A stretch of DNA of 37,207 nt, taken from the IMG/VR virus record IMGVR_UViG_3300045988_171829, one strand, 5' to 3'. The notes beneath the pieces were generated by a model. The model was given only the letters and a program-made list of their open reading frames with translations, was not told the origin of the DNA and made no database searches. Made by a program: the position numbers and the translations under genes. The DNA comes from a virus. Positions within the stretch are counted from its first letter, which is position 1, and every line of letters begins with the position of its first letter. Shown here piece after piece: positions 1,159 through 18,523 of this stretch.

Positions 1159-1701
1159 TTAGATCCTAAAATCTCTTCTTGCTTTATTCATTGTATCTTG
1201 TGTTATTCCAATATACTTTAAAGTAATACTTTCTTTAGAATGATTAAACATCTGCATTAAAGTTGCTATATCTCCAGTCTGTTTATAGTAATGAAAACCA
1301 AATGTTTTTCTTAATGTATGTGTTCCTAGGTTTTCTACTCCAAATCTTTCACCTATATTTTTCATGATCTTCCATGCTTGTTCTCTTCCTATAGGCTTAT
1401 TTATATTACTTTTTCTAAATAGATACTCTTCATCATCCATTTCTAAACAATACTCTTTATATACTGTTCTTAATATTGGACTAATCTCTATTATATTTCT
1501 TTTTTCAGTTTTCTTTTCTCTAATATCGATGTACTTCTTATTTTTAACATCTTTAACTTTAAGTTTTAAAATATCTGATATTCTTAACCCTGTATATGTC
1601 CCAGTCATTACTAAAGCGTAATTTCTCATATTTTCTCTTTTTAAAGTGGCTTGAATATCATGAAATACATCTGCATCTCTGATGGGTTCAACAAAATTCA
1701 T
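1159..1701 (-). CDS. Short tyrosine recombinase (catalytic domain only, 180 aa)
   Basis: Arg in TGLRISD, HTLRKTF (H-x-x-R), NHS...TLKYIGI (His and Tyr nucleophile). There is no N-terminal core-binding domain. Confidence 0.8.
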   Translation of the reverse strand: MNFVEPIRDADVFHDIQATLKRENMRNYALVMTGTYTGLRISDILKLKVKDVKNKKYIDIREKKTEKRNIIEISPILRTVYKEYCLEMDDEEYLFRKSNINKPIGREQAWKIMKNIGERFGVENLGTHTLRKTFGFHYYKQTGDIATLMQMFNHSKESITLKYIGITQDTMNKARRDFRI

Positions 1702-2548: not shown

Positions 2549-3610
2549 TTATGACACTAATTTTCTATATGAATATTCAACATCTGTTTGTGCTACTTTT
2601 GCATATACACGTAATGTAAGACCAACATCATTATGACCTAAAATTTGCTGGATTACCTCTGGTTTCATACCGCTTCTTAAAGCAAATGTTGCAAAAGTAT
2701 GCCTTAGTGTATGTGGAGTGATTCTCATTTCTATATTGGCCATTTTCTGCATCTTATCCACTATAACTTGATAACCTCTATTATTTAATTTCTTATATAG
2801 CTCTGTATTGATTGATTTTTTCTTTGGTGCCTTTGAAGAACAAAATAAATATTCGCTGATTATTCCTTGCTCCTCACGTTCTCTAAGATAATTAAGTATT
2901 GACCTTTTACATCTTTCTGTAAAATATACTCTTCTTTCCTTATTTCCCTTTCCTATAACTAATAAAGTCTTATGTGTCATATCTAAATCGCTTACCTTAA
3001 CATTACCAACTTCAGCTACTCTACAACCAGTTGATAAGAAAAATTCTAATATTGCTCTATCTCTTCTACTAAGCATACAATCTCTTAACATTTCAACTTG
3101 TTCCTCATTAAGTGGCTTTTTCTCTCTTTTAGGTTCCTTAACTGGCTTTATTGAAGAACATGGATTCTTAATTATAAATTCTTCATTTTGAAGCCATGCA
3201 AAGAATAATTTAATAGGTGTCATAAATGTGTTCATTCCAGCAGCACCCTTGGTACTACTTTCTGCATACATGAACATTTTAATGTCAGCACTTGTAATCA
3301 TAGATACTGGCTTATTGAAGAATTTGCATAATTTTCTTAAGTTATAGCTATAATTCTTTAAAGTAGCTACTGATAAACCTTCAAGCTTTTTAGTCGCTAG
3401 GAAATAGTTTACCTTATCCTCAAGATCACTTGTCACTAATGCTGTTTCTTTTGTAGTAACCTCATACCCATATAAAACTTCTTCTACTAATCTTTTTATT
3501 TCTAGTTGTCTTGGTAGGTTAACCTCTAGCTCTGGAAACTCCATTGTTAATTTACCTATTAATTTTACAGTTACTTCTTCGTTGCAATTTCTATAATTTA
3601 AGTTCTCCAT
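2549..3610 (-). CDS. XerC/XerD-like tyrosine recombinase (full length, 353 aa)
   Basis: N-terminal SAM-like core-binding region. GCRVAEV (Arg), HTLRHTFAT, LGHNDVGLTLRVYAKV (His, Tyr). Confidence 0.85.
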   Translation of the reverse strand: MENLNYRNCNEEVTVKLIGKLTMEFPELEVNLPRQLEIKRLVEEVLYGYEVTTKETALVTSDLEDKVNYFLATKKLEGLSVATLKNYSYNLRKLCKFFNKPVSMITSADIKMFMYAESSTKGAAGMNTFMTPIKLFFAWLQNEEFIIKNPCSSIKPVKEPKREKKPLNEEQVEMLRDCMLSRRDRAILEFFLSTGCRVAEVGNVKVSDLDMTHKTLLVIGKGNKERRVYFTERCKRSILNYLREREEQGIISEYLFCSSKAPKKKSINTELYKKLNNRGYQVIVDKMQKMANIEMRITPHTLRHTFATFALRSGMKPEVIQQILGHNDVGLTLRVYAKVAQTDVEYSYRKLVS

Positions 3611-9776: not shown

Positions 9777-10499
9777 CTAAACTACATAACCTTCATCCTG
9801 TTGATTTAATAAGTAAATATCGTTTATTAAGTAAATTGGTGCTTTATATTTAGCAACTATCTCATGGGCCATATTAAGCTGACTTCTCTTAATAGCTTCA
9901 TATCTACTTACTCCAAACTCTCTTCTAAGTTGTTGCTGAATATCTGAATACACCTTACATCTAATTGATCTATTCTTATATGCTGGTGAACCTTTACCAC
10001 CTAATATCTCAACACCTTTTCTTTTAACTGCAGCTTGAATTTCCTTACATTCTACATTGAAAAGTGGCATCCCATCTTTTAGTTCCTTAACTTCAACTGC
10101 TAATTGTTGTTGCTTATGATCCAGAGCAAATATAGCTTGTACTTCTTTACTTAAATGTGAATATGGATTTTTAATAGTTTGTTCCATCTTATTAAATGCT
10201 TCTATATATTTAAGTTTCCATTGAAGTGCCTTGCTGCCTGTAAACCCCATTACTAATAAACTAAATCCATCTCTTGTAATTAAATATTCTGGGTACATTT
10301 TCCCTCTATTTTCAAATTGACTTTCTATAAACATAGATTTCACAGCCGAATTTTCGTCCACCAAATTTCTTATAGATTCTAAGATGTGTTTATGCATCTT
10401 CTCAAAATCTTCTGCAACTTGTCTACTAGTTACAACTAGCTCTCCATCATTATTTCTAGTAATTACGACATCCTTATGCATATGTTTTGTATTATTCAT
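9777..10499 (-). CDS. Rha-family phage regulatory protein / antirepressor-like (Rha N-domain + ORF6C-like C-domain)
   Basis: LVVTSRQVAEDFEKMHKHILESIRNL ... YLITRDGFSLLVMGFTG matches the Rha signature. Confidence 0.75.
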   Translation of the reverse strand: MNNTKHMHKDVVITRNNDGELVVTSRQVAEDFEKMHKHILESIRNLVDENSAVKSMFIESQFENRGKMYPEYLITRDGFSLLVMGFTGSKALQWKLKYIEAFNKMEQTIKNPYSHLSKEVQAIFALDHKQQQLAVEVKELKDGMPLFNVECKEIQAAVKRKGVEILGGKGSPAYKNRSIRCKVYSDIQQQLRREFGVSRYEAIKRSQLNMAHEIVAKYKAPIYLINDIYLLNQQDEGYVV

Positions 10500-10506
10500 T
10501 TTCTTT

Positions 10507-10725
10507 TCACTCCTTAATTAACAACTTAGGTATATCTAGTTTTAACTTTTTAGAAATTGTTTTTATTTTCCTTGCTCCAGGCAATCTCTTCCCTAACAAG
10601 TATGTAGTTAATGAACTTCTAGGGATTCCTAAAAACTCTGAAAACTCTTGTTGGGTCATTCCTTTGGTAAGTCTTTCGTATTCTAGTAATTTAGCTAATT
10701 TTTTTGTTTTTTCTTCTCTTGTCAT
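10507..10725 (-). CDS. Cro-like XRE-family HTH regulator
   Basis: MTQQEFSEFLGIPRSSLTTYLLG is an XRE HTH. The ATG at 10725 follows AAGGAG by 6 nt, whereas the track start at 10758 is a TTG. Divergent from the cI-like gene. Confidence 0.8.
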   Translation of the reverse strand: MTREEKTKKLAKLLEYERLTKGMTQQEFSEFLGIPRSSLTTYLLGKRLPGARKIKTISKKLKLDIPKLLIKE

Positions 10726-10783
10726 TTTTAACTCCTTTGATTTCATTTTGAATTTCAAGCAATTTAATTATTATATCTATCAT
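10691..10783 (-). CDS. Possible 30-codon leader micro-ORF overlapping the cro-like start
   Basis: GTGAGGTGA RBS, ATG at 10783. MIDIIIKLLEIQNEIKGVKNDKRRKNKKIS shares DIIIKLLxIQ with the micro-ORF at 11391-11474, including a synonymous Leu codon change. Confidence 0.3.
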   Translation of the reverse strand: MIDIIIKLLEIQNEIKGVKNDKRRKNKKIS

Positions 10784-10807
10784 GTTTATCACCTCACTTA
10801 CAAATTC

Positions 10808-10840
10808 ATTTTAACACATACGGACAAATTCGGACAAATT
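10808..10840 (-). promoter_or_regulatory. Early (PR-like) promoter with tandem CGGACAAATT operator-like repeats
   Basis: The minus strand reads TGTTAAAAT, i.e. TG-n-TAAAAT, an extended -10 (10816-10808). TTGTCC lies 18 nt upstream. CGGACAAATT x2 (10821-10840) covers the -35 and spacer. Confidence 0.5.
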
Positions 10841-10961
10841 GTTTATTTTTTATTTGTTTAAATTATACTTGTTTTTCTCTTAATTTCTCTATTTTTCTTT
10901 TTATATCTATATTATTCAAATTAAGTATTAAATCACATTTGTTCGTGTTTGTTTAAAAATG

Positions 10962-10990
10962 TTTACTTTTAGAACCACTTATGTTATTAT
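10962..10990 (+). promoter_or_regulatory. Candidate promoter of the cI-like gene
   Basis: TTTACT (10962-10967) - 17 nt - TATTAT (10985-10990). An inverted operator-like copy CATTTGTTCG (10936-10945) lies just upstream. Confidence 0.45.
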
Positions 10991-11011
10991 TAATATGAAA
11001 GTAGAAGTGTT

Positions 11012-11377
11012 ATGACATTAGGATTTTTTTTAAAAAAAGATAGGGAAGATAAATGCTTAACTCAAGAAGAATATAGTAAAGCTATTGGAATAAGTCGAAG
11101 TACTTTAGCTTCATTAGAAACTGGGAGTAGAATGCCATCAAAATCTAACGCAAAAAAATTAGTTGAGTACTTCCAAAAACCTCTTTCTGAATTGATAGGA
11201 GAAGAAAAAATTTCTAAATTATCTAGTTTAGAAACTACAAACCTATTAATAGATTCTCTTATAAATAATGAACAAATAACAAATGAAAATATTGATGATA
11301 AAATAAAATCATTGATTTGGGAAAGTTTAAATCTTGAAATTCAGTTAAAATTAAAAATTAAGAATCAAAACAAATAA
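11012..11377 (+). CDS. cI-like XRE-family repressor (no S24 peptidase domain)
   Basis: LTQEEYSKAIGISRSTLASLETG is an XRE HTH. 121 aa, divergent from the cro-like gene. No Ala-Gly/Ser-Lys autocleavage module is visible. Confidence 0.75.
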   Translation: MTLGFFLKKDREDKCLTQEEYSKAIGISRSTLASLETGSRMPSKSNAKKLVEYFQKPLSELIGEEKISKLSSLETTNLLIDSLINNEQITNENIDDKIKSLIWESLNLEIQLKLKIKNQNK

Positions 11378-11410
11378 AAAGAGATCTAAATTATTTAGAT
11401 CTCTTTTTAT
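11376..11410. terminator. Bidirectional intrinsic terminator
   Basis: GAGATCTAAA-TTA-TTTAGATCTC (10-bp perfect stem) flanked by A5 and T5. Confidence 0.75.
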
Positions 11411-11474
11411 TTTTACAATTTAATTGAATTTTTAACAATTTAATTATTATATCATCAATATCTTTTTCTTTCAT
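11391..11474 (-). CDS. 27-codon micro-ORF downstream of a LexA-box promoter, convergent with the cI-like gene
   Basis: AAAGGGGA - 7 nt - ATG. Translation MKEKDIDDIIIKLLKIQLNCKNKKRSK. The stop lies inside the terminator hairpin. Confidence 0.4.
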   Translation of the reverse strand: MKEKDIDDIIIKLLKIQLNCKNKKRSK

Positions 11475-11503
11475 ACAAGCATCCCCTTTTGTTTATAATA
11501 AAA

Positions 11504-11532
11504 ATTATATATCGCCTCGAACATCTGTTCAA
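11504..11532 (-). promoter_or_regulatory. Near-consensus sigma-A promoter overlapped by a LexA (Cheo) box
   Basis: Minus strand TTGAAC (11532-11527) - 17 nt - TATAAT (11509-11504). Plus strand CGAACATCTGTTCA (11518-11531) matches CGAACATATGTTCG at 12/14. Confidence 0.65.
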
Positions 11533-11564
11533 GTTCTTTTCACATTTTTATTATACCCCAAAAA

Positions 11565-11585
11565 AATATTCCTGACAGGAATATT
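11565..11585. promoter_or_regulatory. Perfect 21-bp palindrome AATATTCCTG-A-CAGGAATATT (operator-like)
   Basis: 10-nt arms around a single central base, read directly. Located between the LexA-box promoter and the second XRE gene. Confidence 0.5.
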
Positions 11586-11740
11586 TCGACAAAATTTTTA
11601 CATTTGTAGTAATTGAATGTAATTTATAAATTATATTGTTTATTTATTCAATTTAAATAAAATATTTCTTATAACTTGTTTTTATTTAATAGAATTATGT
11701 CGTTTTAAGTCGGAAATTTGTTAAAAATCAGAGGTTTTAT

Positions 11741-11935
11741 ATGATAAAACAGGCACGATTTACTAAAAAAATTTCACAAAAAGAATTAGCTGAATATTTA
11801 AATGTTACTCAATCCTATATTTCTAAGATAGAAACCAGAAAGACTAAGTCGTTAACGGTTGATAAGATACTGTCTTTATCTTTAATATTAGATTTGGATC
11901 CTGTAGAAGTTTTTAAGTTTATCGCTGAACTATAG
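11741..11935 (+). CDS. XRE-family HTH protein (64 aa)
   Basis: ISQKELAEYLNVTQSYISKIETRK is an XRE HTH. GAGG RBS. Confidence 0.75.
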   Translation: MIKQARFTKKISQKELAEYLNVTQSYISKIETRKTKSLTVDKILSLSLILDLDPVEVFKFIAEL

Positions 11936-11942
11936 AATTGTT

Positions 11943-11957
11943 GTTTCACAATGAAAC
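11943..11957. promoter_or_regulatory. 15-bp palindrome GTTTCA-CAA-TGAAAC (operator-like), with a half-conserved second copy 30 bp downstream
   Basis: Perfect 6-bp arms. The related GTTTCATAATGCAAT lies at 11973-11987. TATAAT at 12015-12020 precedes the next XRE gene. Confidence 0.45.
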
Positions 11958-12038
11958 TTTTATATATTAATTGTTTCATAATGCAATATTATAAACTTTA
12001 ACTTACCTATAGCCTATAATATTCTTTGGAGGGATATT

Positions 12039-12332
12039 ATGAATATAGGTGAGATTATAGCAGAATTAAGAATGGATAAAGATATTAATCAAGAAGATCT
12101 TGCAGCTATACTTAATATTTCTAGATCAACTTTAGCTAATTGGGAAGCTGGTAATAGAAGAATTGATATAGAAACATTAGTTGTTATAGCAGATTATTTT
12201 GGTGTTAGTTGCGATTATCTTTTAGGAAGAACAAAACATAAATATAATTTTGCATTAGAAAATAAAAACAATATAGATGCCGTTATGGATATATATGAAT
12301 CTTTAAGAAAATATAAAATAGAAAGAGAATGA
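12039..12332 (+). CDS. XRE-family HTH protein (97 aa)
   Basis: INQEDLAAILNISRSTLANWEAGNRR is an XRE HTH. GGAGGG RBS. Confidence 0.8.
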   Translation: MNIGEIIAELRMDKDINQEDLAAILNISRSTLANWEAGNRRIDIETLVVIADYFGVSCDYLLGRTKHKYNFALENKNNIDAVMDIYESLRKYKIERE

Positions 12333-12336
12333 AGTG

Positions 12337-12367
12337 TATCTTAGAAATAATAAGATATGCTTTTTTT
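12337..12367 (+). terminator. Weak AT-rich hairpin + T7 after the third XRE gene
   Basis: TATCTTA-GAAATAA-TAAGATA, then TGC and TTTTTTT. Confidence 0.35.
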
Positions 12368-12457
12368 GTGGATAAAAAATAGTTGGTTAATTTTTTTGTT
12401 GATAACTTTTGGAAAATGCATTACAATATTGACTATAAAATAAATTTTTGTGAATAA
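12367..12457. promoter_or_regulatory. Three co-oriented DnaA boxes upstream of rep (candidate plasmid oriV)
   Basis: TGTGGATAA (12367-12375) is the perfect complement of TTATCCACA. TGTTGATAA (12397-12405) and TGTGAATAA (12449-12457) each have one mismatch. All three are preceded by T-runs. Confidence 0.6.
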
Positions 12458-12475
12458 AAGAAGAAAATAGATATG

Positions 12476-12547
12476 AAAAAAACTCTTTAAGTTGTCTGCA
12501 ACCAAACTTTCAACTTAAAGAGCCCCACCAAAAAGGTCTTTCACTTT
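12476..12547 (-). ncRNA. Predicted ~70-nt countertranscript (ctRNA) antisense to the rep leader
   Basis: Minus-strand TTGACT (12583-12578) - 18 nt - TATAAT (12559-12554). A 12-bp perfect hairpin (12483-12494/12511-12522) is followed by T7 only on the minus strand. Ends are estimated. Confidence 0.4.
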
Positions 12548-12642
12548 GTATTAATTATATATTATTAATCATAATTTAGTCAAGTGTTAAGACCTCTTTG
12601 GGGAACATTTTTTATATGTTTTTCTCAAGGAGGTATTTTTTT

Positions 12643-13866
12643 ATGGCAACAAACGTTAAAGCAGATTCAACAGTAATTAAAAGGGTAATTAAGGAAGCTA
12701 AATATGCTCAAATTGATAATGACTTAATAAACAATAGAGAATTATCATTTAAAGCTCTTGGTATTATGACTTATATATTATCTAAACCAGATGATTGGCA
12801 AATATATATATCAGATTTATGTAGAGATAAAGATGGTGAAAAAAGTGTAAGAGCTGGCCTAAATGAATTAAAAGATAAAAAGTATATTCAAAGATATAGA
12901 GTTTATGACATGGACACTGGTAAAGTTCATCACTGGGAAACTTTAGTTTCTGAAACTCCATTCGAAGATTCTGAAATAATTTCTTCAGTTAAAGAAAAAT
13001 ATTTTAAAGATTCAGAAGGTAAAATTATTAATAAAAAAATTAAAATAAAATCTTTTGAAAGAAGTGTTCCAATCGTTATAGAAAGAGAAGTTACACTACT
13101 TTCCCAAAAGGGTAAAATAGAAAATAAAAATAAAAATTTTCTACTTTCCCAAAACGTACAAGTAGAAAACCTACAAGTAGAAAACGCAGGACAACAAATA
13201 CTAAATTCTTTTACTAACACTAATTCTTTCACCAACACTGATATTAGTAATAATAGTAAGGGAGATAAATCTCCACAAGCTATTCGCTTTGAAGCTATTA
13301 TTGGTAAAACTTTAGGCAAAACAACTTTACCTAAATTTGAAGAACATATTAAAAACTTTAATGATGATCTAATTGAATCTATTTTGGTATATGCAGAAGA
13401 AACACATGCTAGGACTTATCAATGGTTTGAAGATAGGATTAATGAATGTATGAGAAAAGGGGTTGTTACAGGGGAACAATTCACTGCTGATGTTAATGCC
13501 TATAGAGAAAAACAAAGACAAGCTAAAAACAGAGCATTAAAAGAAAAAGATGAAAATAAAAATTTAGATAATGCAATTGAAGCAGCACAAGAAAGAGAGC
13601 TTAATGAAAGTATAAATAAAGGGATAGATATATCTTCTGGTGTTGAAATTGAAGAAGTAAAAGAAGTTATTAAAGAGTTTGTCAGTGATAGTGTATTTAA
13701 GGCATGGATAGCCCCTAATAAGTTTTTAAATGTTAATGATAGAATTGTAATGGCGTGTGTAAATAGGTTTAGTAAGGACGTAATAGAGAGAAGATACTAT
13801 AGTGAAATATGCACTGCATTAAAATCAAGTGGATTTGATAAAGAGTTTTTGTTAAGTGTGGATTAA
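12643..13866 (+). CDS. Plasmid-type replication initiator: wHTH + DnaD-like + DnaA-domain-I-like C-terminus
   Basis: The ATG at 12643 follows AAGGAGG (the track start at 12598 has no RBS). N-terminal winged-helix-like region (LSFKALGIMTYILSKPDDWQIY). Central DnaD-like region (LVYAEETHARTYQWFEDRI). The C-terminus VFKAWIAPNKFLNVNDRIVMACVNRFSKDVIERRYYSEI parallels DnaA domain I (SFETWMK...[22 protein letters not shown]). Confidence 0.7.
   Translation: MATNVKADSTVIKRVIKEAKYAQIDNDLINNRELSFKALGIMTYILSKPDDWQIYISDLCRDKDGEKSVRAGLNELKDKKYIQRYRVYDMDTGKVHHWETLVSETPFEDSEIISSVKEKYFKDSEGKIINKKIKIKSFERSVPIVIEREVTLLSQKGKIENKNKNFLLSQNVQVENLQVENAGQQILNSFTNTNSFTNTDISNNSKGDKSPQAIRFEAIIGKTLGKTTLPKFEEHIKNFNDDLIESILVYAEETHARTYQWFEDRINECMRKGVVTGEQFTADVNAYREKQRQAKNRALKEKDENKNLDNAIEAAQERELNESINKGIDISSGVEIEEVKEVIKEFVSDSVFKAWIAPNKFLNVNDRIVMACVNRFSKDVIERRYYSEICTALKSSGFDKEFLLSVD
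13096..13239. repeat. Cluster of three direct-repeat pairs inside rep (iteron-like)
   Basis: CTACTTTCCCAAAA at 13096-13109 and 13141-13154. TACAAGTAGAAAAC at 13157-13170 and 13172-13185. An 18-bp tandem AATTCTTT(T/C)AC(T/C)AACACT at 13204-13221 and 13222-13239. Confidence 0.8.
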
Positions 13867-18115: not shown

Positions 18116-18523
18116 ATGATGGGTAGAACTCATATGGCTATTGGAGTTGCTGTAGCACTTCCAGTAATTAAATATTTAGATTTATCTTATGTTTCTATGG
18201 CTGGAGCTATTGTAGGTTCTGTGGCACCAGATTGGGATTTATATTTAGGAATAAAACATAGAACAATAACACATAGTTTATTGTTTTTATTAATAAGTAG
18301 TGTTTTAGTTGGAGTATTTAATATAGATATGGCTATATTGTGGTTTATAGCTTATGCACTACACCTTATTTCAGATAGTTTTACAAAGATGGGTGTACCT
18401 TTCTTTTATCCATTTGTTAAAAAAAAGTATGGAGCAAAGCTTATTTATGCTTCTGGAGCTGAAGATCTATTTATTTTATTAGTTGCCATCTATATAATTT
18501 CAGAAATGATAAAAATTAAATAA
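18116..18523 (+). CDS. YdjM/DUF457-like membrane-bound metal-dependent hydrolase
   Basis: GRTHMAIG...APDWD...HRTITHS...HLISDSFTKMGVPFFYPF with multiple transmembrane segments. Confidence 0.65.
   Translation: MMGRTHMAIGVAVALPVIKYLDLSYVSMAGAIVGSVAPDWDLYLGIKHRTITHSLLFLLISSVLVGVFNIDMAILWFIAYALHLISDSFTKMGVPFFYPFVKKKYGAKLIYASGAEDLFILLVAIYIISEMIKIK

What the first reader, a model, noticed from the sequence alone, without database searches (positions are those of the whole stretch)
11391..11532. Near-consensus LexA box on a strong promoter driving a 27-codon micro-ORF convergent with the cI-like repressor gene
Seen: CGAACATCTGTTCA (11518-11531) matches the Firmicute LexA/DinR box CGAACATATGTTCG at 12/14, with both GAAC/GTTC arms intact. 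On the minus strand it overlaps TTGAAC (11532-11527) - 17 nt - TATAAT (11509-11504). Downstream lie AAAGGGGA - 7 nt - ATG (11474) and a 27-codon ORF (MKEKDIDDIIIKLLKIQLNCKNKKRSK) whose stop sits inside the bidirectional terminator shared with the cI-like gene. Knowledge: the 121-aa cI-like protein has only an XRE HTH and no S24 autocleavage module. Several phages (186 Tum, N15 AntC, Gifsy phages, GIL01) route SOS through LexA-controlled factors. Inference: this is the SOS input to the switch. It could be an unusually small antirepressor peptide, or a short convergent RNA that interferes with cI-like expression.
Basis: partly seen in the sequence, partly recalled or inferred. Interest (0 to 1): 0.8.

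Follow-up and report, generated by a model that had tools for sequence, protein, structure and literature searches.

The report
SOS-controlled 27-codon antirepressor-like phage gene
A gut Clostridium-type phage-plasmid carries a tiny 27-codon gene behind a LexA (DNA-damage) operator next to its uncleavable repressor gene, most likely the peptide trigger that wakes the phage after DNA damage, as shown in 2025 for AimX in Bacillus phages.

Summary
CGAACATCTGTTCA (11518-11531) overlaps the -35 of a minus-strand promoter (TTGAAC-17-TATAAT). That promoter drives an RBS and a 27-codon ORF (11474-11391) whose stop lies in the bidirectional terminator shared with the convergent 121-aa XRE-only repressor gene.

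In about 128 kb of non-redundant related DNA, all seven strict GAAC-N4-GTTC dyads lie at this one position (0.005 expected per locus). The arms are conserved while the centre varies, and the dyad always sits on a near-consensus promoter: on the -35, abutting it, in the spacer, or over the start site. The ORF is kept in at least eight lineages, with RBS and ATG retained and pN/pS below 1.

The UV-inducible C. perfringens phage PhiS63 has the same unannotated module with a perfect CGAACATTTGTTCG box.

The closest known system is AimX/AimC of Bacillus "extended arbitrium" phages: a 29-aa LexA-controlled peptide antirepressor convergent with a short HTH repressor. Here there is no aimR/aimP and no detectable homology.

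Verdict: a real LexA-controlled micro-gene and a probable peptide antirepressor. It is a new variant of a known kind. The function is inferred, not shown.

The parts
11518..11531 (.). LexA (SOS) box CGAACATCTGTTCA, of the Firmicute type GAAC-N4-GTTC
   Evidence: It is the only such site in the window. The dyad is kept in place in relatives as CAAACATATGTTCA, TGAACATACGTTCA, CGAACATTTGTTCA, CGAACATTCGTTCA, AGAACATACGTTCT, AGAACGTACGTTCG and AGAACATATGTTCT, and as a perfect CGAACATTTGTTCG in C. perfringens phage PhiS63. All 7 strict sites in 128 kb of related DNA are at this locus. Clostridial LexA operators are GAACnnnnGTT[CT] (PMC4234289).
11504..11532 (-). Promoter P1: -35 TTGAAC (11532-11527), 17-nt spacer, -10 TATAAT (11509-11504). 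The predicted start is near 11496. The LexA box covers the -35 and part of the spacer.
   Evidence: scores it 10/12. The TATAAT is invariant and the 17-nt spacing is kept in alignment A1. Every lineage with a box except L050 has a 9-11/12 promoter overlapped or abutted by it.
11482..11489 (-). Ribosome-binding site AAAGGGGA, 7 nt before the ATG
   Evidence: The relatives keep a purine-rich RBS with a different sequence (GGAGAG, GGAGGAG, AAAGGGGAA, GGAAAGGGAA) 5-8 nt from a conserved ATG.
11391..11474 (-). 27-codon micro-ORF MKEKDIDDIIIKLLKIQLNCKNKKRSK, the predicted peptide antirepressor
   Evidence: The frame is kept open in window, L012, L013-15, L016, L036/L053, L055, L051 and L050, with the core (D/N)I(D/N)xI(I/L)(I/L)(K/R)LL(K/E)IQ. 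pS exceeds pN in all pairs. Pooled pN/pS is 0.45 in frame against 0.60 and 1.50 out of frame. Gene callers annotate it in L050, L051, L053, L054 and L055. It is 48% charged with no membrane segment.
11372..11412 (.). Bidirectional intrinsic terminator (perfect 20-nt arms with A-run and T-run flanks), shared by the repressor gene and the micro-ORF. It contains the micro-ORF stop codon.
   Evidence: z = -4.5. In all 12 lineages examined the small ORF ends in or at such a hairpin, and the stem sequences are unrelated between lineages.
11012..11377 (+). 121-aa XRE-family repressor (cI-like): HTH plus C-terminal helices, no cleavage domain. It is the proposed target of the peptide.
   Evidence: Pfam finds HTH_3, HTH_19 and HTH_31 only. 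The AF2 model has pLDDT 82.8 and is all-helical. Weak PDB matches include the phi106 AimC-AimX complex 9sf2. The peptide family co-occurs with this repressor family in 8 of 8 lineages at 54% identity or more.
10691..10783 (-). Paralogous 30-codon micro-ORF MIDIIIKLLEIQNEIKGVKNDKRRKNKKIS. It is the first ORF of the early lytic operon (RBS GTGAGGTG at 10797-10790) and overlaps the RBS and start of the Cro-like gene.
   Evidence: (30-nt repeat, 90% identical). An HMM built from the early copies retrieves all five box-driven copies (E 9e-6 to 7e-3) ahead of about 2100 other small ORFs. It is annotated as a gene in L001-L009 and in Dulem virus 30.
10507..10725 (-). 72-aa Cro-like XRE HTH gene, the second ORF of the early operon. 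It is followed by a Rha/ORF6C gene (9777-10499) and replication genes.
10808..10945 (.). Divergent switch region. The early promoter is TTGTCC-18-TAAAAT (10837-10808, minus strand), covered by tandem ATTTGTCCG repeats (10821-10839). An inverted third copy, ATTTGTTCG (10937-10945), lies near the cI promoter. These are the candidate cI operators.
   Evidence: The tandem repeats are conserved in L012-L016. No copy lies near P1.
11550..11590 (-). Second upstream promoter P2 (CTGTCA 11578-11573, 17 nt, TATAAT 11555-11550), embedded in the conserved palindrome AATATTCC-TGACA-GGAATATT (11565-11585) plus TTTCGAC. Its transcripts would read through the LexA box into the micro-ORF.
   Evidence: scores it 10/12. 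The stretch is invariant in A1. P2 is the only promoter for the small ORF in L051 and in L020, L027 and L031, which lack a box. The palindrome always precedes an HTH64 homologue, including PhiS63 gp27.

Best explanation
This is a self-contained SOS-inducible micro-gene of about 130 nt that provides the DNA-damage input to the lysis-lysogeny switch of a Clostridium-type phage-plasmid.

Proposed mechanism:
1. In the lysogen, host LexA binds GAAC-N4-GTTC over the -35 of promoter P1 and keeps it shut. It would also block read-through from the upstream promoter P2.
2. After DNA damage, RecA-stimulated LexA cleavage frees P1. A short mRNA is made, ending at the bidirectional terminator shared with the repressor gene.
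3. The mRNA is translated into a 27-aa, highly charged amphipathic-helix peptide.
4. The peptide binds the 121-aa XRE repressor, which has no autocleavage domain. It probably binds the C-terminal helical oligomerisation region and so abolishes operator binding at the ATTTGTCCG repeats on the early promoter.
5. The first product of the derepressed early operon is a paralogue of the same peptide, translationally overlapping the Cro-like gene. This would reinforce and lock the decision.

Shown here:
- The box, promoter, RBS, ORF and terminator unit exists and is conserved.
- Selection acts at the peptide level.
- The two copies are paralogues.
- The peptide family co-occurs with the repressor family.
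- No cleavable repressor is encoded.

Inferred:
- LexA binding.
- Damage-inducible transcription.
- The peptide-repressor interaction and the feed-forward role of the second copy.
For: Box:
- It is unique in the window.
- All 7 strict GAAC-N4-GTTC sites in 128 kb of related DNA lie here. 10 of 12 representative loci have a dyad within 110 nt of the anchor, against 0.005 expected.
- The arms are conserved while the central 4 nt vary (ATCT, ATAT, GTAC, ATAC, ATTT, ATTC, TTGT). This is what a LexA site predicts.
- It matches the clostridial operators GAACnnnnGTT[CT] (PMC4234289).

Promoter linkage:
- The dyad lies on the -35 (7 loci), abuts it (3), lies in the spacer (L041) or lies over the start site (PhiS63), always on a 9-11/12 promoter on the ORF strand. 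This holds although the flanking DNA cannot be aligned between types.

Coding:
- RBS and ATG are kept with changed sequence.
- pS exceeds pN in 25 of 25 pairs. pN/pS is lowest in frame, and codon position 2 varies least.
- Gene callers annotate the ORF in five relatives.
- The paralogue is recovered by HMM.

Need for such a factor:
- The repressor is HTH-only, and no S24 or ImmA-type protein is encoded in the ORFs scanned.

Cognate pairing:
- Peptide family 1 occurs with repressor family 1 in 8 of 8 lineages at 54% identity or more.
- Unrelated repressors (L017, L020, PhiS63) carry unrelated small ORFs at the same place.

Precedent:
- AimX of phi106 is 29 aa, sits just downstream of a LexA site and is convergent with short HTH-only AimC. 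It was proven to act as a peptide rather than an antisense RNA, and it blocks AimC oligomerisation (bioRxiv 10.1101/2025.11.23.689978; PDB 9sf2 appears among the weak matches to this repressor).
- Sar of SPbeta and phi3T is likewise LexA-controlled (bioRxiv 10.1101/2025.11.27.690993).

Phenotype in a relative:
- PhiS63 has the same module with a perfect box and is UV-inducible (PMC3442830).
Against: - There is no experimental datum for this element, and its host is unknown. No relative was found in isolate genomes.
- The coding signal rests on few, short sequences, and the frame contrast is modest (0.45 against 0.60 for one alternative frame).
- No homology to AimX, or to AimC beyond the generic HTH, was found. 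The analogy is architectural.
- The idea that the peptide mimics the repressor's C-terminal helix failed statistical tests.
- Some relatives have the peptide without a box (L051) or only the early-operon copy (Dulem virus 30). LexA control is therefore not obligatory for the peptide's function.
- L050 has a box but no recognisable promoter.
- The two mRNAs share a complementary terminator, so an RNA-level contribution cannot be excluded.
Confidence: 0.55

Rival explanations
1. The product is an RNA, not a peptide. SOS-induced convergent transcription, or the short RNA's 3' hairpin that is complementary to the 3' end of the repressor mRNA, lowers repressor expression through polymerase collision, terminator interference or duplex-directed RNA decay. 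On this view the ORF is incidental.
For: The two genes converge and share a 41-nt palindromic terminator, so their 3' ends are complementary. This arrangement is kept in all 12 lineages.
Against: RBS, ATG and reading frame are conserved while the nucleotides change, and pN/pS is below 1 in frame. The paralogue at the early operon is similar at the protein level and lies on the same strand, so it is not complementary to anything relevant. There is no conserved RNA structure apart from the terminator and no Rfam match. A strong terminator should stop the transcript before it enters the repressor gene. For AimX, recoding and start-to-stop mutants excluded the RNA mechanism (same preprint).
Confidence: 0.12
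2. The peptide is real and SOS-induced but has another target. It might bind the Cro-like protein, HTH64 or HTH97, host LexA or RecA, or a replication or division factor, rather than the cI-like repressor.
For: No interaction data exist. The early-operon copy overlaps and may be translationally coupled to the Cro-like gene. In L024 and L041, box-driven small ORFs precede sigma-factor genes, not repressor genes. GIL01 gp7 is a small phage protein that targets LexA itself (PMC4551915).
Against: The peptide family co-segregates with the repressor family and not with the HTH64/Rep module, which is shared by elements carrying unrelated peptides. The position and orientation match the proven AimX-AimC pair. 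An HTH-only repressor needs some inactivator.
Confidence: 0.15
3. The dyad is an operator for a phage- or plasmid-encoded HTH protein (HTH64, HTH97 or cI), or it mainly regulates the plus-strand HTH64-Rep-ParM module. It is not a host LexA site controlling the micro-ORF.
For: The dyad lies only 8 nt from a weak plus-strand -35-like TTCACA. It sits 46-93 nt from the conserved HTH64-associated palindrome in all types. Four XRE proteins are encoded nearby.
Against: The sequence is the canonical Firmicute LexA box, perfect in PhiS63. Its distance to the anchor varies, while its overlap with the minus-strand promoter is constant. It occurs with three unrelated repressor families, and the L020 type keeps HTH64 and HTH97 but has no dyad. 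The candidate cI operators (ATTTGTCCG) and the HTH64-linked palindrome are different sequences.
Confidence: 0.08
4. The micro-ORF is an SOS-induced type I toxin or membrane peptide of the TisB/DinQ kind, carried by the prophage.
For: It is small, a LexA box lies upstream, and there is a convergent overlapping transcript.
Against: The peptides are 38-52% charged. In all family-1 members except L050 the longest uncharged run is 3-5 residues. The best 15-residue hydropathy is 1.2 or less, against 2.6 for TisB (the TisB sequence was taken from memory). The peptides cannot span a membrane.
Confidence: 0.02
5. This is a chance constellation of motifs in AT-rich intergenic DNA.
For: Within the window alone the box is only weakly improbable (13 of 100 shuffles), and promoter-like sites abound.
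Against: The whole unit is conserved and recurs across many lineages.
Confidence: 0.01

Closest known systems
AimX-AimC-AimL core of 'extended arbitrium' systems (Bacillus phages phi106, phiW23, Wbeta, BMBtp14; bioRxiv 10.1101/2025.11.23.689978; PDB 9sf2, 9iaq)
   Same: - A very small ORF (29 aa in phi106) lies just downstream of a LexA site.
- It is convergent with the 3' end of a short (80-140 aa) HTH repressor that has no autocleavage domain.
- A divergent cro-like gene heads an early operon with replication genes.
- The peptide, not the RNA, inactivates the repressor by occupying its C-terminal oligomerisation domain.
- The peptides are helical, poorly conserved and specific to their repressor.
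   Different: - There is no aimR/aimP upstream, so no peptide-signalling input.
- No sequence homology to AimX was found, and homology to AimC is limited to the generic HTH.
- The host is Clostridium-type, not Bacillus.
- A second, paralogous copy of the peptide gene heads the early operon.
- A second promoter lies under a conserved palindrome.
- The two ORFs share a terminator rather than overlapping by 30 bp.
Sar-SroF of SPbeta and phi3T (bioRxiv 10.1101/2025.11.27.690993)
   Same: A small antirepressor gene sits behind an SOS box. LexA cleavage triggers induction of a phage whose repressor is not RecA-cleavable. The repressor-antirepressor pairs are cognate.
   Different: SroF is an integrase-fold repressor bound as a monomer, and Sar is a dimeric DNA mimic. 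The gene arrangement is different, and there is no homology.
LexA-controlled antirepressors of Gram-negative phages: 186 Tum, N15 AntC (from memory) and Gifsy GfoA/GfhA (PMC3121763)
   Same: The logic is the same: host LexA represses a phage antirepressor gene, and the antirepressor inactivates a non-cleavable immunity repressor.
   Different: Those proteins are roughly 3-5 times larger. They use the CTGT-N8-ACAG box, have different gene positions, and show no homology.
SinI-SinR of Bacillus subtilis (PDB 1b0n)
   Same: An XRE HTH repressor with C-terminal helical oligomerisation hooks is antagonised by a small helical protein that replaces the partner subunit. SinR/SinI appears among the weak fold matches.
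   Different: SinI shares recognisable sequence with the SinR C-terminus. Here such mimicry was tested and not supported. SinI is not under LexA control.
MOR-CI of lactococcal phage TP901-1 (from memory)
   Same: The first gene of the early lytic operon encodes a small protein that counteracts the CI repressor. The early-operon copy at 10783-10691 occupies the same position.
   Different: MOR is 72 aa, is not LexA-controlled, and has no second SOS-driven copy. No homology was found (no Pfam or PHROG hit).
GIL01 gp7/LexA (PMC4551915) and P22 immI Mnt-Pant (from memory)
   Same: In GIL01, a plasmid-like Firmicute prophage uses host LexA and SOS boxes as the switch input through a small phage protein. 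In P22, the antirepressor promoter is held off by a dedicated second repressor, as the P2 palindrome and HTH64 may do here.
   Different: In GIL01, LexA directly represses the lytic promoter and gp7 is a LexA co-repressor, not an antirepressor. P22 Ant is large and is not controlled by LexA.

Membership tests
Firmicute LexA (DinR) operator / SOS-regulated promoter | A GAAC-N4-GTTC (or GTTT) dyad, consensus CGAACATATGTTCG | tested here: met
   CGAACATCTGTTCA is 12/14 with both arms intact. The relatives keep the arms and vary the centre. PhiS63 has CGAACATTTGTTCG. The motif definition comes from PMC4234289.
Firmicute LexA (DinR) operator / SOS-regulated promoter | The operator overlaps or abuts the core promoter of the regulated gene | tested here: met
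   The box covers the -35 TTGAAC of P1. In other lineages it is on the -35, abutting it, in the spacer, or over the start site.
Firmicute LexA (DinR) operator / SOS-regulated promoter | LexA binds the site, and transcription rises after DNA damage | not testable with these tools
   The only indirect evidence is that PhiS63, which has the same module, is UV-inducible (PMC3442830).
AimX-type peptide antirepressor (extended arbitrium) | A very small ORF convergent with the 3' end of a short HTH-only repressor, with a cro-like gene divergent from the repressor | tested here: met
   The 27-aa ORF at 11474-11391 converges on the 121-aa XRE gene at 11012-11377. The Cro-like gene at 10725-10507 is divergent.
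AimX-type peptide antirepressor (extended arbitrium) | A LexA site immediately upstream of the small ORF (phi106 family) | tested here: met
   The box lies 44-57 nt upstream of the ATG.
AimX-type peptide antirepressor (extended arbitrium) | Location downstream of aimR-aimP and control by AimR | tested here: not met
   Upstream of the micro-ORF there are only plus-strand HTH64, HTH97, Rep and ParM genes. No large minus-strand ORF lies there.
AimX-type peptide antirepressor (extended arbitrium) | Sequence or structural homology to AimX or AimC | tested here: not met
   The peptide profile finds nothing in the PDB, including the AimX chain. The repressor profile hits 9sf2 and 9iaq only through the HTH. 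Foldseek gives E = 1.2e-2 and TM 0.38.
AimX-type peptide antirepressor (extended arbitrium) | The peptide binds the repressor's C-terminal oligomerisation domain and abolishes DNA binding | not testable with these tools
   No complex prediction or experiment was available. The only support is that peptide and repressor families co-occur.
Lambda-type RecA-stimulated autocleaving repressor (S24) | A C-terminal Peptidase_S24 / LexA-like domain in the immunity repressor | tested here: not met
   Pfam finds HTH only. The AF2 model is all-helical. No S24 domain is found in the other ORFs scanned.
ImmR-ImmA type (protease antirepressor) | An ImmA/Peptidase_M78 gene adjacent to the XRE repressor | tested here: not met
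   No such domain is present in the neighbours or in the 30 ORFs scanned.
Classical Ant/Rha/BRO antirepressors | Homology to the Phage_pRha, ORF6C, AntA or KilAC domains | tested here: not met
   The micro-ORF has no Pfam or PHROG hit. A Rha/ORF6C protein is encoded at 9777-10499, but it lies inside the repressed early operon and has no box.
SinI-like antagonist (mimic of the repressor's own oligomerisation helices) | Significant sequence similarity between the antagonist and the repressor C-terminus | tested here: not met
   In the shuffle test, 71 of 2000 shuffles reach the observed score for the window, and the result is not significant in three relatives. The peptide HMM does not single out the repressors among 661 ORFs.
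SOS-induced type I toxin (TisB/DinQ-like) | A hydrophobic membrane-spanning peptide | tested here: not met
   The peptide is 48% charged, and its longest uncharged run is 5 residues.

The most novel reading that the evidence does not exclude
The two paralogous peptide genes form a two-stage latch that has not been described for any switch.

A stand-alone copy is guarded by two tandem promoters. One is under host LexA (P1). The other is under a conserved palindrome that is probably bound by the plasmid-module regulator HTH64 (P2). This copy fires the switch.

A second copy is the first cistron of the early operon and is translationally coupled to the Cro-like gene. It locks the switch by positive feedback.

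The element would therefore integrate DNA damage and plasmid-maintenance status. The immunity cassette (repressor, cognate peptide and SOS promoter) would be an exchangeable module that swaps next to a conserved backbone in gut Clostridia phage-plasmids and in integrating phages such as PhiS63.
Probability: 0.3. Interest if true: 0.7.

Novelty: new variant of a known kind. Interest (0 to 1): 0.55.

Why it matters
Many temperate phages of Clostridia, and of Firmicutes generally, have short XRE repressors without a cleavage domain, yet are induced by UV or mitomycin C. How the SOS signal reaches them is mostly unknown.

This locus suggests that the mechanism shown in 2025 for Bacillus arbitrium phages also operates without arbitrium in Clostridium-type gut phage-plasmids. 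In that mechanism a LexA-guarded peptide of fewer than 30 residues disables the repressor.

The same module is present, unannotated, in the cultured UV-inducible C. perfringens phage PhiS63. That gives a tractable system in which to test the idea.

The finding also shows that the decisive regulatory gene of such phages can go unannotated and be undetectable by homology search. Among 1.8 billion representative proteins the family has only 2 real relatives. It can still be found by a simple rule: a LexA box on a strong promoter, then an RBS and a micro-ORF, then the repressor's own terminator.

The paralogous early-operon copy would add a feed-forward element not reported for AimX.

Practical relevance includes predicting antibiotic-triggered prophage induction in the gut, and engineering clostridial phages.

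Tried and rejected
1. Peptide as a mimic of the repressor's C-terminal helix (NIDDxI..L / LEIQ.K.K). The pairwise shuffle test was weak (71 of 2000 shuffles reach the score for the window, not significant in relatives). The peptide HMM does not rank the repressors first among 661 ORFs. The mimicry idea is not supported.

2. In the second, unrelated module type (L017, L020, L025), my impression that the box-driven ORF resembles the first early-operon ORF was not supported by reciprocal HMM searches. The paralogue claim is therefore restricted to the window's family.

3. The 30-nt repeat (10748-10777 and 11424-11453) as operator DNA. This is rejected because relatives change the nucleotides at synonymous positions and keep no dyad there. 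The likely cI operators are the ATTTGTCCG repeats elsewhere.

4. Host identification failed:
   - The repressor alignment and the DNA anchor found nothing genuine in 185,579 species genomes.
   - There is no close DNA relative in the phage or plasmid collections.
   - Rep and ParM gave only remote hits or none.
   - The Clostridium assignment rests on 27-30% GC, the best nucleotide hits of the Rha gene to Clostridium phages, and the PhiS63 homology.

5. The search for homologous proteins refuses queries under 40 aa. The representative-library search with the 30-aa paralogue gave only two real relatives.

6. Rfam found no family in 10300-12700.

7. Homology to AimC or AimX goes no further than the HTH.

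8. PhiS63's repressor has no close relative among cultured phages, so only one cultured example is known.

9. The metagenome and genome hits L026, L029, L035, L037, L039 and L044-L047 to the anchor pattern are chance matches in GC-rich or unrelated DNA.
Full report
**1. The observation**

- CGAACATCTGTTCA lies at 11518-11531. It is the only match to CGAACATATGTTCG with up to 3 mismatches in the 37.2-kb window, and the only exact GAAC-N4-GTTC.
- On the minus strand, TTGAAC (11532-11527), a 17-nt spacer and TATAAT (11509-11504) form a 10/12 promoter.
- AAAGGGGA (11489-11482) precedes the ATG at 11474 by 7 nt.
- The ORF encodes MKEKDIDDIIIKLLKIQLNCKNKKRSK. No alternative in-frame start lies upstream.
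- Its stop codon (11393-11391) sits at the centre of a perfect inverted repeat with 20-nt arms (11372-11412), flanked by an A-run and a T-run. This is a bidirectional terminator shared with the convergent 121-aa gene. The short RNA folds with z = -4.5, entirely because of this hairpin.

Taken alone the box is only mildly improbable. It is expected 0.14 times, and 13 of 100 shuffles contain one. Promoter-like hexamers are frequent in this 27% GC DNA. The case therefore has to rest on comparison with relatives.

**2. Context**

The window is a phage-plasmid-like element.
- All lytic genes are on the minus strand. The late genes run from 37086 down to 15362: terminase, structural genes, holin, amidase.
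- The early operon runs from 10783 downward. It contains a micro-ORF, a 72-aa Cro-like HTH, a Rha/ORF6C protein, a replisome organiser, a DnaC-like loader, SSB, two tyrosine recombinases and an HNH protein.
- A plus-strand island holds the 121-aa XRE repressor (11012-11377), two further small XRE proteins (64 and 97 aa), a DnaD/DnaA_N-type Rep, an actin-like ParM and an RHH protein.
- No S24 or ImmA-type protein is encoded in the ORFs scanned.
- The repressor's AF2 model (pLDDT 82.8) is an HTH followed by C-terminal helices.

Identical or near-identical elements occur in many human-gut metagenomes. No close relative exists in the annotated phage or plasmid collections or in species-representative genomes. 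A GC content of 27-30% and the best hits of individual genes point to Clostridium sensu stricto-like hosts.

**3. Comparative test of the box and promoter**

Relatives were gathered in five ways:
- by exact-protein look-up;
- by repressor similarity in viral contigs;
- by an invariant intergenic DNA anchor, AATATTCC-N5-GGAAT-N-TTTCGAC, in viral and metagenome contigs;
- by repressor homologues in the large protein database;
- by tblastn against cultured phages.

In relatives whose intergenic DNA is 67-71% identical, the dyad is retained in place as CAAACATATGTTCA, CAAACGTACGTTTG (a symmetrical change) and TGAACATACGTTCA. The -10 is invariant and the 17-nt spacer is kept.

The dyad also recurs in mosaic relatives where the DNA between the anchor and the small ORF cannot be aligned:
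- CGAACATTTGTTCA and CGAACATTCGTTCA (L017, L025);
- AGAACATACGTTCT and AGAACGTACGTTCG (L036/L053, L055);
- AGAACATATGTTCT (L024);
- CAAACATACGTTTG (L041);
- AGAACTTGTGTTCC (L050).

In 128 kb of non-redundant related DNA, all seven strict GAAC-N4-GTTC sites lie within 110 nt of the anchor. Ten of 12 representative loci have a dyad there, against a background expectation of 0.005. The arms are conserved while the four central bases vary. That is the signature of a LexA site, and it matches the clostridial operators GAACnnnnGTT[CT] (PMC4234289).

A systematic promoter table shows the dyad always placed where it would block RNA polymerase at a 9-11/12 sigma-A promoter on the small-ORF strand:
- on the -35 (seven loci);
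- abutting the -35 (L036, L055, L024);
- inside the spacer (L041);
- over the start site (PhiS63).

L050 is the exception, with no recognisable promoter.

**4. Is the micro-ORF a gene?**

The frame is open, with a conserved ATG and a purine-rich RBS of varying sequence, in eight lineages:
- window: MKEKDIDDIIIKLLKIQLNCKNKKRSK
- L012: MNETNIDEIIIKLLKIQMNCKNKNELEKK
- L013-15: ...EKKSLR
- L016: MKKKDINEIILRLLEIQSKLMKQS
- L036/L053: MGNKNIDKILIKLLEIQEKCKLKRERDLN
- L055: MGNKNTDEILIKLLKIQEKCKTKKERDLKQ
- L051: a 43-aa form
- L050: a 44-aa form ending ...SIILSLLEIQEQIKKEM

Synonymous differences exceed non-synonymous ones in all 25 pairwise comparisons. Pooled pN/pS is 0.45 in frame against 0.60 and 1.50 in the shifted frames. 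Codon position 2 varies least. The signal is modest because the sequences are short, but it points the right way. Independent gene callers annotate the ORF in five relatives.

The only conserved RNA structure is the terminator. Its stem sequence differs completely between lineages, while the ORF always ends in or at it. Rfam has no match. The peptides are 38-52% charged amphipathic helices and cannot span a membrane.

**5.

The first ORF of the early operon (10783-10691, RBS GTGAGGTG) encodes MIDIIIKLLEIQNEIKGVKNDKRRKNKKIS. It overlaps the RBS and start of the Cro-like gene. The same arrangement is found in L012-L016, L036, L051 and L055, and in the annotated Dulem virus 30.

An HMM built only from the early copies retrieves all five box-driven copies (E = 9e-6 to 7e-3) ahead of about 2100 other small ORFs, where the next best score is 0.65. 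In-frame pN/pS for the early copies is 0.29, against 0.84-0.87 out of frame.

**6. Modularity**

The peptide family travels with the repressor family. It does not travel with the neighbouring HTH64/Rep/ParM backbone.
- All eight lineages with a repressor at least 54% identical carry the IIKLLEIQ-type peptide.
- Elements with the same backbone anchor but unrelated XRE-only repressors (L017/L025 and L020/L027) carry unrelated 39-45-aa ORFs at the same place.
- L024 and L041 place a box promoter and a small ORF in front of sigma-factor genes.

A second minus-strand promoter, P2 (CTGTCA-17-TATAAT), is embedded in the anchor palindrome. It is conserved in most types and is the only promoter for the small ORF in the box-less L051 and L020 types. 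The palindrome always precedes an HTH64 homologue. So in the window the micro-gene probably has two tandem promoters, P2 (under the palindrome) and P1 (under LexA). This part is inference.

The candidate cI operators (ATTTGTCCG twice on the early promoter, and one inverted copy near the cI promoter) are confined to the cI/Cro divergent region.

**7. A cultured example**

C. perfringens phage PhiS63 has a 120-aa repressor 34% identical over 92% of the length. Downstream of that gene the record has no annotated feature. The sequence shows:
- a perfect CGAACATTTGTTCG, the only dyad in 5.3 kb;
- TTGCAA-17-TATAAT just upstream of it;
- an RBS (GGGGGA);
- a 27-aa ORF, MSEEFLELLKTLERELNKINKNKKEDD, whose stop lies in the repressor's terminator hairpin;
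- an anchor-like palindrome followed by gp27. gp27 is 45% identical to HTH64 across the HTH.

PhiS63 was obtained by UV induction, and its description does not mention LexA or SOS (PMC3442830).

**8. What is known**

A November 2025 preprint (10.1101/2025.11.23.689978) shows that aimX in most arbitrium phages encodes a small antirepressor.
- In phi106 it is a 29-aa ORF just downstream of a LexA site.
- It is convergent with aimC and overlaps its end by 30 bp. AimC is an 80-140-aa HTH repressor without a cleavage domain.
- Recoding and start-to-stop mutants showed that the peptide acts, not the antisense RNA.
- AimX binds the C-terminal oligomerisation domain of AimC.

A companion preprint shows that the LexA-controlled Sar inactivates SroF in SPbeta and phi3T.

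The present locus has the AimX/AimC/AimL geometry and the LexA site, but no aimR/aimP. The phi106 AimC-AimX complex (9sf2) is the second-best PDB match to this repressor by both sequence and fold, but only weakly and through the generic HTH. The peptide profile matches nothing.

So this locus works like AimX, but it is not a demonstrable member of that family.

**9. Conclusion**

The most likely mechanism is a LexA-guarded micro-gene whose 27-aa peptide inactivates the XRE-only repressor, reinforced by a paralogous peptide encoded at the head of the early operon.

My confidence by step:
- The dyad is a functional LexA operator for P1: about 0.85.
- The peptide is the active product: about 0.75.
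- Its target is the cI-like repressor: about 0.55-0.6.

The main rivals are an RNA or convergent-transcription effect, a different peptide target, and a non-LexA binder of the dyad. A membrane toxin and chance are effectively excluded.

The kind of system is known, so novelty is moderate. The new aspects are:
- occurrence outside arbitrium and outside Bacillus;
- the duplicated peptide gene;
- the dual-promoter arrangement;
- the exchangeable immunity cassette;
- a testable explanation for UV induction of PhiS63.

Noticed in passing
window 10691-10783 (-): A 30-codon paralogue of the micro-ORF (MIDIIIKLLEIQNEIKGVKNDKRRKNKKIS) is the first cistron of the early lytic operon. It overlaps the RBS and start of the Cro-like gene. 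It is conserved in all close relatives and is annotated as hypothetical in Dulem virus 30.
   Followed up: yes
window 11550-11590: An invariant palindrome, AATATTCC-TGACA-GGAATATT followed by TTTCGAC, carries a second minus-strand promoter (CTGTCA-17-TATAAT). It always precedes an HTH64 homologue. It is probably an operator through which a second repressor controls the micro-gene and/or the plasmid module, comparable to P22 Mnt-Pant.
   Followed up: partly
window 10821-10839 and 10937-10945: Tandem ATTTGTCCG repeats cover the -35 of the early promoter, and one inverted ATTTGTTCG copy lies near the cI promoter. These are the candidate cI operators and are conserved in L012-L016.
   Followed up: partly
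L049 (Clostridium phage PhiS63, NC_017978.1), locus 2845-3060: An unannotated 27-aa ORF (MSEEFLELLKTLERELNKINKNKKEDD) sits behind a perfect LexA box, CGAACATTTGTTCG, and converges on repressor gp25. It is a candidate explanation for the UV inducibility of this cultured phage.
   Followed up: yes
L056 2840-2960 (ENA ERZ783916 NODE_74): This is a rearranged variant. A 47-nt deletion plus inversion of the 63-nt segment between two TTAATTAA palindromes fuses the repressor C-terminus to the micro-ORF core (...SLEILIKLLEIQEKCKLKRERDLN*) and truncates the micro-ORF. It could be a real inversion or an assembly artefact in a contig with 5x coverage.
   Followed up: partly
L024 345-560 and L041 2718-2900: LexA-box promoters (a perfect GAACATATGTTC abutting TTGAAA-17-TGTATAAT in L024, and a box inside the spacer in L041) drive small ORFs followed by sigma-70-family genes, plus an anti-sigma-like gene in L041. 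The same HTH64 backbone is present. From memory, this recalls the UV-inducible uviA sigma factor of C. perfringens pIP404.
   Followed up: partly
window 18116-18523 (+): A YdjM-family inner-membrane protein gene sits on the opposite strand inside the late-gene block and looks like a moron. From memory, YdjM is a LexA-regulon member in E. coli. No LexA box lies near it here.
   Followed up: no
window 12361-12459: Three iteron-like direct repeats (TTTTTGTGGATAAAA, TTTTTGTTGATAA and TTTTTGTGAATAAAA) lie upstream of the Rep gene. Relatives swap the DnaD/DnaA_N-type Rep for Rep3 (L053) or for two small wHTH proteins (L001, L003), and PhiS63 has an integrase instead.
   Followed up: no
window 1159-1701 and 2549-3610 (-): Two tyrosine recombinase genes (180 and 353 aa) lie in the early operon of an element that also has Rep and ParM. 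They may act in plasmid dimer resolution, or they may indicate an integrative option.
   Followed up: no
window 9777-10499 (-): A Rha/ORF6C 'antirepressor'-family protein is encoded as the third gene of the cI-repressed early operon. It cannot be the primary SOS trigger, and its role alongside the micro-peptides is unexplained.
   Followed up: partly
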